Shown piece by piece: positions 10,376 to 11,485 of a stretch of 64,000 bases of DNA. The notes under the pieces were generated by a model. It was not told the DNA's origin. It saw only the letters and a list, made by a program, of their open reading frames with translations, and made no database searches. This DNA comes from the human T2T-CHM13v2.0 reference genome, Homo sapiens: the NCBI RefSeq assembly GCF_009914755.1, contig NC_060927.1, one strand, 5' to 3'. How positions within the stretch are numbered: position 1 is the first letter of the stretch; each line of letters opens with the position of its first letter. The translations under genes were made by a program, and so were the position numbers.

Positions 10376-10600
10376 AGAAAAGCGGAACTTGCTGCTAAGG
10401 GTGAAGGAGAAGGGGTTGAGGGGTACTTGCCCCTCCCCCAGAAAAGCAGGACTTGCCGCTAAGGGTGAAGGAGAAGGGGTTGAGGGGTACTTCCCCTCCT
10501 CCAGAAAAGCAGAGAAGGGGTAGAGACAAGGAGAGAAGGGGTTGGGGTACTTGCCCCTTCCCCAGAAAAGCGGGACTTGCTGCTAAAGGTGAAGGACCAA
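10376..10600 (-). repeat. HERV-H leader tandem repeats (~61-64-bp unit)
   Basis: AGAAAAGC anchors at 10376, 10440, 10503 and 10564 with shared AAGGAGAAGGGGTTG..GGTACTT cores. Confidence 0.85.
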
Positions 10601-11168
10601 GGCAGGCATCCCTGCGTGGTCTGACACCTTTGAAACGTGAGTGAATAATCAGAGAGGTGTCCCTGCAATGATTAAACACCAAGGGAAGGCTGCCTTCCCA
10701 TTCCATAACCGGTGCTGGAGTTTTGGGTCCACGGATAAAACTTGTCTCCTTTGTCTCTACCAGAAAATGAAAGGAATTGAAATTAAGAGACGGGAGAGAT
10801 TGAAGTGTGGCACCAAGATTGAAAGGAGAAAGAGGTTGAGGGATAGTGAGGGAAGCCGGAGAAGAGAATGAAAAGAGGCCGCTTACTGGATTTGAAATTG
10901 GTGAGATGTTTCTTGGGCTGGTCGGTCTGAGGACCTGAGGTCGTAGGTGGATCTTTCTCACGGAGCAAAGAGCAGGAGGACAGGGGATTGATCTCCGAAG
11001 GGAGGTCCCCCAATCTGAGTCACGGCACCAAATTTCATGCACGTCCATGTGAAGAGACCACCAAACAGGCTTTGTGTGAGCAACATGGCTGTTTATTTCA
11101 CCTGGGTGCAGGCAGGCTGAGTCTGAAAAGAGAGTCAGCGAAGGGAGATAAGGGTAGGGCCGTTTCAT
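10395..11168 (-). CDS. 257-aa ESRG/HESRG-like ORF spanning the 5' LTR and leader; translation unproven
   Basis: LTLFSDSACLHPGEINSHVAHTKPVWWSLH...GASTPQPLLLHP closely matches the recalled ESRG protein; stop TAG at 10395-10397. Confidence 0.45.
   Translation of the reverse strand: MKRPYPYLPSLTLFSDSACLHPGEINSHVAHTKPVWWSLHMDVHEIWCRDSDWGTSLRRSIPCPPALCSVRKIHLRPQVLRPTSPRNISPISNPVSGLFSFSSPASLTIPQPLSPFNLGATLQSLPSLNFNSFHFLVETKETSFIRGPKTPAPVMEWEGSLPLVFNHCRDTSLIIHSRFKGVRPRRDACLGPSPLAASPAFLGKGQVPQPLLSLSLPLLCFSGGGEVPLNPFSFTLSGKSCFSGGGASTPQPLLLHP
11013..11030 (-). other. Primer-binding site for tRNA-His
   Basis: Reverse complement TGGTGCCGTGACTCAGAT, one mismatch to TGGTGCCGTGACTCGGAT, 2 nt from the 5' LTR end. 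Confidence 0.92.
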
Positions 11169-11485
11169 AGGATTTCGGTAGGTAAAGGAAAATTACAGTC
11201 AGAAGGGGTTTGTTCTCTGGCGAGCAGGAGTGGGGGTCGCAGGGTGCTCAGTGGGGGTGCTTTTTGAGCCAGGATGAGCCAGGAAAAGGACTTTCACAAG
11301 GTAATGTCATCACTTAAGGCAAGGACCGGCTATTTACACTTCTTTTGTGGTGGAATGTCATCAGTTAAGGTGGGGCAGGGTATTTTCACTTCTTTTGTGA
11401 TTCTTCAGTTACTTCAGGCCATCTGGGCATATACGTGCAAATCACAGGAGATGCGATGGCTTGGCTTGGGCTCAGAGGCCTGACA
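11033..11485 (-). promoter_or_regulatory. 5' LTR (LTR7, LTR7up/u-like), HERV-H promoter/enhancer
   Basis: Colinear with the 3' LTR (~18 substitutions, no indels, by eye); ACAAAAGA motifs at 11341-11348 and 11391-11398; TATA altered to TATGAAA at 11163-11169. Confidence 0.93.

What the first reader, a model, noticed from the sequence alone, without database searches (positions are those of the whole stretch)
10395..11169. One 5'-LTR substitution removes the TATA box and creates the ATG of an intact 257-aa ESRG-like ORF
Seen: the 3' LTR reads CCTATAAAACGG (TATA at 5869-5875), the 5' LTR reads CCTATGAAACGG (11163-11169). The new ATG (11168-11166) starts 257 stop-free codons through R/U5, PBS and leader repeats, while gag, pro and pol are all broken. 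Recalled knowledge: from codon 11 (CTG at 11138; LTLFSDS...QPLLLHP) the protein closely resembles the HERV-H-derived ESRG/HESRG ORF, plus an extra leader-repeat segment. Substitutions indicate a paralogue, not ESRG itself. Inference: this may be an independently born ESRG-type ORF. The ATG lies upstream of the normal LTR7 start site in a weak Kozak context (CCT-ATG-A). Using it needs a shifted start site or upstream read-through; otherwise only CUG initiation at 11138 is available.
Basis: partly seen in the sequence, partly recalled or inferred. Interest (0 to 1): 0.8.

Follow-up and report, generated by a model that had tools for sequence, protein, structure and literature searches.

The report
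Ordinary ESRG-like ORF in active HERV-H
The 257-codon reading frame is real, but it is the same leader frame that stays open by chance in about half of related HERV-H proviruses, sits in an already catalogued stem-cell-active locus, and shows no sign of being a protein-coding gene.

Summary
The 5' LTR reads TATGAA where the 3' LTR reads TATAAA, and the new ATG opens a 257-codon frame (10395-11168, minus strand). From codon 11 that frame matches ESRG_HUMAN at 202 of 222 aligned residues, plus inserts of 5 and 20 residues; the 20-residue insert lies in the leader repeats, where the window has one more 64-nt unit than ESRG.

The frame is not a new birth. It is open for at least 200 codons in 23 of 46 other HERV-H copies examined. 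Neutral decay predicts about 52% open, so nothing has preserved it. Sixteen of the 46 carry ATG-started ORFs of 150 aa or more in this frame, and three reach 257 aa or more. Codon-position diversity shows no coding signal, and Pfam finds no domain.

The TATA-to-ATG change occurs in 9 LTRs against 779 with TATAAA. It lies about 30 nt upstream of the expected start site, so it is probably not transcribed.

The locus is already catalogued (Carter 2022) as an LTR7up1 provirus that is highly expressed in hESC.

Useful by-products: ESRG's annotated Met1 is a CTG codon in both assemblies, and the ESRG frame has no in-frame ATG. The start site at this locus could not be checked.

The parts
11033..11485 (-). 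5' LTR (LTR7up1), 453 bp
   Evidence: It aligns with the 3' LTR over 453 bp. Carter 2022 supplements class it as 7up1 with H3K4me3, H3K27ac, KLF4, NANOG and FOXP1, RNA=1 and top-seventh GRO-seq.
11164..11169 (-). Mutated TATA box, TATGAA; the new ATG is 11168-11166
   Evidence: The context is aatcctATGa. Genome-wide there are 9 TATGAA against 779 TATAAA 17-mers.
11136..11138 (-). CTG codon 11, homologous to the annotated Met1 of ESRG_HUMAN
   Evidence: It lies 31-33 nt downstream of the first T of the TATA hexamer, so it sits about at the expected start site (inference).
11092..11097 (-). AATAAA polyadenylation signal in R
10958..11086 (-). Out-of-frame upstream ORF (42 codons). Its ATG at 11086 is the first AUG of a canonical LTR-driven transcript
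   Evidence: The context is acagccATGt, with G at -3. It overlaps the in-frame ATG at 11048.
11046..11048 (-). In-frame ATG (codon 41), 217 codons to the stop; a difference between the two LTRs at a CpG site
   Evidence: (T/C at 11047/5753). The reference copy has it too.
11013..11032 (-). Primer-binding-site region directly after the LTR
   Evidence: The position is read. Its identity as a tRNA-His-type PBS is recalled, not tested.
10395..11168 (-). 257-codon ESRG-like open frame (stop TAG at 10397-10395) running through U3 end, R, U5, PBS and leader
   Evidence: Pfam finds no family. The protein is 40% Pro+Ser+Leu.
10884..10889 (-). Splice-donor-like site A|GTAAG inside the ORF (codon ~93)
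   Evidence: Pattern match only. Use as a donor was not tested.
10371..10596 (-). 64-nt leader tandem repeat, 3.6 copies (2.6 at ESRG); the ORF's stop lies in it
10283..10362 (-). 21/42-nt leader tandem repeat
10206..10208 (-). Gag start codon (MGKLPPS...), in the same frame as the ORF and separated from it by three stops
   Evidence: Naming this motif as the Gag N-terminus is recalled. Pfam does not recognise it.
8720..8953 (-). Protease (RVP) fragment
   Evidence: Pfam E=0.0028, below the curated cut-off.
7031..7195 (-). Integrase core (rve) fragment
   Evidence: Pfam E=0.00083, below the curated cut-off.
5739..6191 (-). 3' LTR with intact TATAAA (5875-5870)
11486..11490 (.). Target-site duplication CACAC (the other copy is at 5734-5738)
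   Evidence: Read.

Best explanation
This is a full-length, internally degraded HERV-H provirus (window 5739-11485, minus strand) with LTR7up1 LTRs. It is already catalogued as one of the HERV-H loci highly transcribed in human embryonic stem cells. The 257-codon frame is the family-wide open frame of the R-U5-PBS-leader ('pre-gag') region, the same frame that is annotated at 3p14.3 as the 222-aa ESRG protein. It was open in the progenitor and has simply not yet been hit by a stop here, as in about half of the close relatives. The A>G change in the TATA box is a neutral transition of a kind seen in about 1% of LTR7 copies, and it happens to fall in frame. The ATG lies about 30 nt upstream of where a TATA-directed start would fall (inferred). 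A normal LTR-driven RNA would therefore begin at about the CTG codon, meet an out-of-frame AUG first (11086, a 42-codon uORF), and reach the in-frame AUG at 11048 only by leaky scanning. The locus most likely acts as a promoter/enhancer and lncRNA source, not as a protein-coding gene. Shown here: the anatomy, the homology, the copy counts, the neutral-rate match, and the published expression and chromatin flags. Inferred: the start-site position and the lack of translation.
For: Same locus as the catalogued one: Carter 2022 supp6 prints the 5' LTR of chr3:176321619-176327363(-) with this window's private variants, TATGAA included. The supp1 row gives 7up1, RNA=1, Top-7th GRO=1, NANOG, KLF4, FOXP1, SMAD1, TCF4, ZNF534, H3K4me3 and H3K27ac =1, and chimeric, KAP1 and H3K9me3 =0. 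Family-wide frame: 57 of 148 scored six-frame matches have no internal stop (hand count, self and ESRG included). 17 of 29 DNA-selected copies, 17 of 29 protein-selected copies and 23 of 46 unique copies are open for at least 200 codons from the CTG position. Neutral rate: about 3% of substitutions in the frame create a stop, and mean pairwise divergence is 5.8%, which gives P(open) of about 0.52. No coding signal: diversity by codon position is 0.070/0.059/0.071, and the third-position excess has p=0.145. Pfam finds 0 families and the ESM Atlas gives no usable hit. The ATG is not special: 9 TATGAA against 779 TATAAA, and the other 8 TATGAA copies have 22-90 open codons. 16 of 46 copies have ATG-started ORFs of 150 aa or more in this frame, using ATGs inside the transcript, and 3 reach 257 aa or more. 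Start-codon map. [quoted passage not shown]
Against: The ancestral openness is not explained by base composition: 18 of 20,000 shuffles stay open, and the other two frames carry 8 and 6 stops. A first pN/pS estimate gave 0.56 in this frame against 0.84 and 1.05 in the control frames (49 copies). I discount it because half of those copies were chosen by protein similarity to this ORF and all comparisons share the window as reference, but I did not repeat the estimate on an unbiased set. In the unbiased sample codon position 2 is the least diverse (0.059), which leans weakly towards coding. The locus is highly transcribed although its TATA box is mutated, so the start site may not be where a TATA box would put it. 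I found no start-site data for this locus. In the window the frame is in phase with gag.
Confidence: 0.8

Rival explanations
1. Loss of the TATA box has shifted or dispersed initiation upstream, so part of the RNA includes the ATG at 11168 and a locus-specific 257-aa ESRG paralogue is made in pluripotent cells.
For: The TATA box is mutated and the GC/GT-type box just 3' of it also differs from typical 7up copies (GGCCCTACCC here against GGCCCCACCC). The locus is nevertheless flagged RNA=1, top-seventh GRO-seq and H3K4me3. The frame stays open for a further 8 codons upstream of the ATG (265 aa stop to stop).
Against: The Kozak context is weak: C at -3 and A at +4. No gene lies within 100 kb to supply read-through (hub annotation). 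There is no start-site or ribosome data. The frame shows no coding constraint. A search of 12 of 15 supplementary files of a TSS-mapping paper for my estimated reference coordinates gave only spurious chr11 hits; I do not know that paper's assembly, and one file was cut when stored.
Confidence: 0.07
2. The frame is translated from inside the normal transcript, from AUG 11048 (217 aa) by leaky scanning or from the cap-proximal CUG 11138. The product is a non-functional, low-complexity polypeptide that matters only as a possible source of HLA-presented peptides.
For: The in-frame ATG at 11048 has G at +4 and lies within R-U5. The locus is highly expressed. A 2026 paper treats a 208-aa ESRG-like ORF of another HERV-H locus as an antigen candidate, and cites a report of a HERV-H peptide overlapping the ESRG ORF as a top predicted HLA-A*02:01 binder (passages).
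Against: An out-of-frame AUG with a better -3 base comes first and overlaps 11048. A donor-like site at 10889 could remove most of the frame from spliced RNA (untested). That paper itself claims no mass-spectrometry support.
Confidence: 0.1
3. The open frame is a relic of a viral protein: a pre-gag, glyco-Gag-like N-terminal extension of HERV-H Gag. On this view ESRG-type ORFs are remnants of viral coding sequence, not de novo ORFs.
For: The ancestral openness exceeds the composition expectation. In the window the frame is in phase with the gag ATG at 10208, with three stops between. In 4 copies (L053, L057, L072, L074) it runs without a stop from the CTG position to the position of the gag start. 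Grandi 2020 reports that Jern et al. [quoted passage not shown] The window ORF is 40% Pro+Ser+Leu.
Against: The phase with gag is not conserved: 22 of 51 copies are in phase against 17 expected (p=0.09), and ESRG itself is out of phase. The spacing varies from 723 to 1773 nt. The frame starts in U3/R and reads through U5 and the PBS, where no known retrovirus codes (established knowledge). There is no third-position excess. Pfam finds nothing in the extended frames. I could not read Jern 2005 itself, so I do not know whether their ORF is this frame.
Confidence: 0.15

Closest known systems
ESRG/HESRG predicted protein (UniProt Q1W209, ESRG_HUMAN), HERV-H locus at 3p14.3
   Same: It is the same reading frame of the same LTR7up1 R-U5-PBS-leader sequence. 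202 of 222 aligned residues are identical, and both end at the same stop after ...QPLLLHP. Both loci are flagged highly expressed in hESC.
   Different: It is a different locus (3q26 against 3p14). The window has an upstream ATG from the TATA change, an in-frame ATG at codon 41, inserts of 5 aa and 20 aa, and one more 64-nt repeat unit. ESRG has TATAAA intact, no in-frame ATG at all, and lacks the out-of-frame ATG of R. ESRG is flagged chimeric and this locus is not.
HERVH_6q21a 208-aa ESRG-like ORF (Front Med 2026, PMC13381639)
   Same: It is another HERV-H locus whose longest ORF is an ESRG homologue in the same frame. It probably corresponds to my L035 (chr6:111.04 Mb), whose ATG-started ORF is also 208 aa.
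   Different: That ORF starts at an internal ATG (ESRG residue ~60), not in the TATA box. It was reported in tumours, not stem cells. My equation with L035 rests on chromosome band and ORF length only.
HERV-H 'pre-gag' leader ORF (Jern et al. 2005, as described in PMC6995185) and MLV glyco-Gag
   Same: It is a long leader between PBS and gag with a Pro/Ser-rich open frame upstream of gag. In this window the frame is in phase with gag.
   Different: The frame here begins in the LTR and crosses the PBS. It is cut from gag by three stops, and its phase with gag varies among copies. The primary paper was not readable.
Transcriptionally active LTR7up1-HERVH lncRNA loci of hESC (Carter 2022; Wang 2014 as cited there)
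   Same: This locus is one of them, by the authors' own table.
   Different: It is the only one among the copies I examined with a mutated TATA hexamer combined with a long open leader frame.

Membership tests
LTR7up1-HERV-H provirus | Two near-identical LTRs flanked by a short target-site duplication | tested here: met
   The 453-bp LTRs are 96.0% identical. CACAC lies on both flanks.
LTR7up1-HERV-H provirus | Assignment to subfamily 7up1 by the authors who defined it | tested here: met
   The locus row and the aligned LTR are in Carter 2022 supp1 and supp6, identified by private variants. I did not re-derive the phylogeny.
LTR7up1-HERV-H provirus | Gammaretrovirus-like interior (gag, pro, pol remnants) | tested here: met
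   A Gag-start motif lies at 10208 (the motif identity is recalled). Sub-threshold RVP and rve fragments are present.
ESRG-type ORF (homologue of Q1W209) | Sequence similarity to the named record over its whole length | tested here: met
   202/247 identities, E=1e-137.
ESRG-type ORF (homologue of Q1W209) | Same frame and homologous start and stop positions in the HERV-H leader | tested here: met
   ESRG_HUMAN equals the L061 frame from the CTG codon to the stop at 221/222 residues. The window's codon 11 is that CTG.
ESRG-type ORF (homologue of Q1W209) | It is the ESRG gene itself | tested here: not met
   ESRG maps to chr3:54.67 Mb (L061). The window is at chr3:179.1 Mb.
Protein-coding gene | Purifying selection on the frame | tested here: not met
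   There is no third-position excess. The open share equals the neutral expectation. A biased first estimate did give pN/pS of 0.56.
Protein-coding gene | Start codon inside the mature transcript in a usable context | tested here: inconclusive
   ATG 11168 lies upstream of the inferred start site, and ATG 11048 lies behind an overlapping uORF. No start-site data were found.
Protein-coding gene | Recognisable domain or fold | tested here: not met
   Pfam finds 0 families. The Atlas gives no usable hit and a low recognition value.
Protein-coding gene | Evidence of translation (Ribo-seq, MS) | not testable with these tools
   No such data are held. The literature searches found none for this locus.
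Glyco-Gag-like pre-gag extension | Continuous frame with gag, conserved among copies | tested here: inconclusive
   The window is in phase but cut by three stops. 22 of 51 copies are in phase (p=0.09), and 4 copies are continuous.
Glyco-Gag-like pre-gag extension | Upstream start located in the leader downstream of the PBS (as in MLV; established knowledge) | tested here: not met
   The frame is open from U3/R through U5 and the PBS.

The most novel reading that the evidence does not exclude
ESRG-type polypeptides are a multi-locus family, and this locus contributes its own isoform in pluripotent cells. That isoform would start either at the TATA-derived ATG, from a start site shifted by the loss of the TATA box, or at AUG 11048. 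If so, 'ESRG protein' signals and HERV-H/ESRG-overlap HLA peptides come from dozens of loci rather than one human-specific gene. The frame itself may descend from a viral pre-gag protein.
Probability: 0.08. Interest if true: 0.55.

Novelty: new member of a known kind. Interest (0 to 1): 0.25.

Why it matters
For this locus, little changes. It is a known hESC-active HERV-H element, and its ORF looks like a by-product.

The wider value is cautionary. ESRG is cited as a human-specific de novo gene (Annu Rev Genet 2024, passage) and as a 222-aa protein 'unique to humans' (Mob DNA 2025, passage). Three results here cut against that:
- The annotated Met1 is a CTG codon in both assemblies.
- The ESRG frame has no in-frame ATG.
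- The same frame is open at dozens of other HERV-H loci at the neutral rate.

Antibody, peptide or antigen work aimed at 'ESRG' therefore cannot be assumed to be locus-specific. My searches found the resemblance reported in print for only one other locus.

The locus also shows that an LTR7up1 promoter can be highly active with a mutated TATA hexamer.

Tried and rejected
- **pN/pS of the window against 49 copies.** It looked coding-like at 0.56. I set it aside as biased by protein-based sampling and a shared reference, and replaced it with the per-column test on DNA-selected copies.
- **'The ESRG frame is the pre-gag frame in phase with gag' as a family rule.** The phase varies among copies, so I rejected it.
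- **Pfam on the four longest extended frames.** Nothing found.
- **ESM Atlas.** No usable hit.
- **Start-site evidence.** Passages of Takahashi 2021, the ZBTB12 paper, Carter 2022 and two reviews gave no LTR7 start-site position. Sjottem 1996 and Jern 2005 are not held. A supplement search of the ZBTB12 paper gave only spurious chr11 hits, with 3 of 15 files unsearched, one file cut when stored, and the assembly unknown.
- **Scripted recount of all 148 places.** It understates openness, because some alignments read through the normal terminal stop.
- **Ape orthologues.** Not available in any tool.

Full report
**What is there**

The minus strand of window 5739-11485 holds a complete HERV-H provirus.
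- Its two LTRs (11485-11033 and 6191-5739) are 453 bp each. They differ at 18 positions with no indels, which is 96.0% identity.
- The pentamer CACAC flanks both ends, as expected for an undisturbed integration.
- One of the 18 differences is G at 11166 against A at 5872. It turns TATAAA into TATGAA in the 5' LTR.
- The resulting ATG (11168-11166) opens 257 codons, down to a TAG at 10397-10395.
- The interior is degraded. No stop-to-stop frame exceeds 154 aa, and Pfam sees only sub-threshold protease and integrase fragments.

**Relation to ESRG**

A six-frame search of the window's own genome found a match at chr3:54.67 Mb, which I fetched as L061.
- There the homologous frame runs exactly 222 codons, from a CTG codon to the same stop.
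- A protein-database search returned the named record ESRG_HUMAN, 222 aa.
- ESRG_HUMAN equals the L061 frame at 221 of 222 residues. The one difference is residue 1: Met in the record, CTG in the genome.
- The reference-genome copy printed in Carter 2022's supplement also reads CTG there.
- The ESRG frame contains no in-frame ATG at all.
- From codon 11 the window's ORF matches ESRG_HUMAN at 202 of 247 aligned positions, with inserts of 5 and 20 residues.
- The window has 3.6 copies of the 64-nt leader repeat and ESRG has 2.6.

**Is the open frame special?**

No.
- 5824 places in the genome were candidates and 148 were scored. Of those 148, 57 have no stop inside the match, counting self and ESRG (hand count, made twice).
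- That figure understates openness. For the common 236-codon version, the alignment reads through the normal terminal stop and scores it as a stop.
- I also measured directly on fetched copies, from the position homologous to the CTG. The frame is open for at least 200 codons in 17 of 29 copies chosen by DNA similarity, in 17 of 29 chosen by protein similarity, and in 23 of 46 unique copies overall. 21 of the 46 reach ESRG's 222 codons.
- Most end at the same stop, after ...QPLLLHP.
- About 3% of random substitutions in this frame create a stop. Mean pairwise divergence among the DNA-selected copies is 5.8%, or about 2.9% per lineage. Neutral decay then predicts about 52% still open, before counting indels.

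**Are ATG-started ORFs of this kind rare?**

No. 16 of 46 copies have ATG-started ORFs of 150 aa or more in this frame. Ten have 196 aa or more, and three have 257 aa or more: L053 at 347 aa, and L056 and L057 at 258 aa each. These use ATGs at recurrent positions inside R-U5 or the leader. The window has one of these as well, at 11048 (codon 41, 217 codons to the stop).

**Is the TATA-derived ATG special?**

- The exact 17-mer with TATGAA occurs 9 times in the genome, and the TATAAA version 779 times. That is 1.1%, in the range expected for a given transition in copies a few percent diverged.
- Of the 8 other TATGAA LTRs, a gag start could be mapped behind 3 and not behind 5. All 8 have only 22-90 open codons behind the ATG.
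- So the window is the one copy where this change meets an intact frame. That is about what chance predicts when roughly half of 5' leaders are open.

**Coding potential**

- Across the window and 29 DNA-selected copies, mean per-column diversity by codon position is 0.070, 0.059 and 0.071. The third-position excess is not significant (p=0.145, or 0.115 without CpG columns).
- An earlier pN/pS estimate gave 0.56 in this frame against 0.84 and 1.05 in the two control frames. Half of those 49 copies had been picked by protein similarity to this very ORF, and every comparison shared the window as reference. I therefore treat it as biased, but I report it.
- Pfam finds no family and the ESM Atlas gives no usable hit.
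- The product would be 40% Pro+Ser+Leu.

**Why was the ancestral frame open?**

Composition does not explain it. Only 18 of 20,000 dinucleotide shuffles keep the frame open, and the other two frames carry 8 and 6 stops.

A known candidate explanation is the HERV-H 'pre-gag' leader ORF. Grandi 2020 reports that Jern et al. [quoted passage not shown]
- In the window, the gag start (ATG at 10208) is in the same frame as the 257-codon ORF, with three stops between.
- In four copies the frame runs without a stop from the CTG position to the position of the gag start.
- But the spacing varies from 723 to 1773 nt with the leader repeats. The phase is not conserved: 22 of 51 copies are in phase after dropping six copies I had fetched for their long frames (p=0.09). 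ESRG itself is out of phase.
- The frame also crosses U5 and the PBS.

I could not read Jern 2005. I keep this as a minority reading.

**The locus is already known and active**

Carter 2022 (eLife) lists chr3:176321619-176327363, minus strand, as LTR7up1.
- The LTR printed in their supplementary file 6 carries this window's private variants, including TATGAA.
- Their supplementary file 1 flags the following as 1: RNA (highly expressed, after Wang 2014), top-seventh GRO-seq, NANOG, KLF4, FOXP1, SMAD1, TCF4, ZNF534, H3K4me3 and H3K27ac. Chimeric transcript, KAP1 and H3K9me3 are 0.
- Their text says that 33% of 7up elements are highly expressed, against 2% of the rest (passage).

So the 5' LTR is an active promoter although its TATA hexamer is mutated. 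This agrees with the RefSeq enhancer features over both LTRs in the hub's annotation.

**How it most likely works**

A TATA-directed start falls about 25-33 nt downstream of the hexamer (established knowledge). That places it at about 11141-11136, on the CTG codon itself.
- The fact that ESRG_HUMAN begins exactly at that codon fits an ORF called from the 5' end of a cDNA. This is my inference.
- On such an RNA, the ATG at 11168 is absent and the CUG is cap-proximal.
- The first AUG is out of frame at 11086, with G at -3. It opens a 42-codon uORF that overlaps the in-frame AUG at 11048.
- A consensus-like donor (A|GTAAG) at 10889 could remove the rest of the frame from spliced RNA. This is untested.

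I therefore read the locus as a promoter/enhancer and lncRNA source with an incidental ORF (confidence 0.8). The start site at this TATA-less LTR is the one open point. I found no start-site data, and one supplement search could not be sent.

**Comparison with what is known, and novelty**

- ESRG is treated as a lncRNA by Takahashi 2021 and Li 2023 (passages). [quoted passage not shown]
- A 2026 paper reports a 208-aa ORF at HERVH_6q21a that is 73% identical to ESRG (passages). This is probably my L035.
- My searches for a general statement that the ESRG frame is family-wide found none. The library lacks most subscription journals.
- The window's ORF is thus a new member of a known kind, in a known locus.

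The by-products may be worth a specialist's note: ESRG's Met1 is a CTG, the ESRG frame has no in-frame ATG, and the same frame is open at dozens of loci at the neutral rate.

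Noticed in passing
window 11441, 11435, 11429, 11242, 11139 (5' LTR): The reference-genome copy of this 5' LTR printed in Carter 2022 supp6 differs from the CHM13 window at five positions in about 450 bp. At four of them (three within 13 bp) the reference carries the state of the window's 3' LTR. 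That is far above typical human diversity and suggests old haplotypes or exchange between the two LTRs. The comparison was by eye. The fifth difference (11139) is synonymous in the ORF.
   Followed up: partly
L061:2689-3357 (chr3:54.67 Mb, ESRG locus): The annotated Met1 of ESRG_HUMAN is a CTG codon in CHM13 and in the reference copy. The 222-codon frame has no in-frame ATG. The out-of-frame ATG usual in R (CAGCCATG) reads CAGCCTCG at ESRG.
   Followed up: yes
window 11150-11160 and 5856-5866: The GC/GT-type box directly 3' of the TATA hexamer reads GGCCCTACCC in the 5' LTR and GGCCTTACCC in the 3' LTR. ESRG and most 7up rows shown in Carter's file read GGCCCCACCC. The title of Sjottem 1996, seen only in a reference list, says HERV-H promoter activity depends on that box, yet this locus is flagged highly expressed.
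   Followed up: no
L053, L057, L072, L074 (chr13:54.88 Mb, chr2:117.71 Mb, chr1:182.97 Mb, chr2:70.63 Mb): In these four copies the ESRG frame is open all the way from the R-region CTG position to the position of the gag start. In L053, L072 and L074 it continues into the Gag N-terminus, and the four frames run 317-468 codons.
   Followed up: partly
protein database hit P0001: A protein 100% identical to the 257-aa ORF is listed from a contig of 215,289,392 bases, a length different from this window's contig (201,105,948). So at least one other assembly appears to encode the identical frame. I did not pursue its origin.
   Followed up: no
window 14766-15060: The hub's table annotates a RefSeq 'silencer' about 3.3 kb upstream (in proviral orientation) of the 5' LTR. 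I did not examine it.
   Followed up: no
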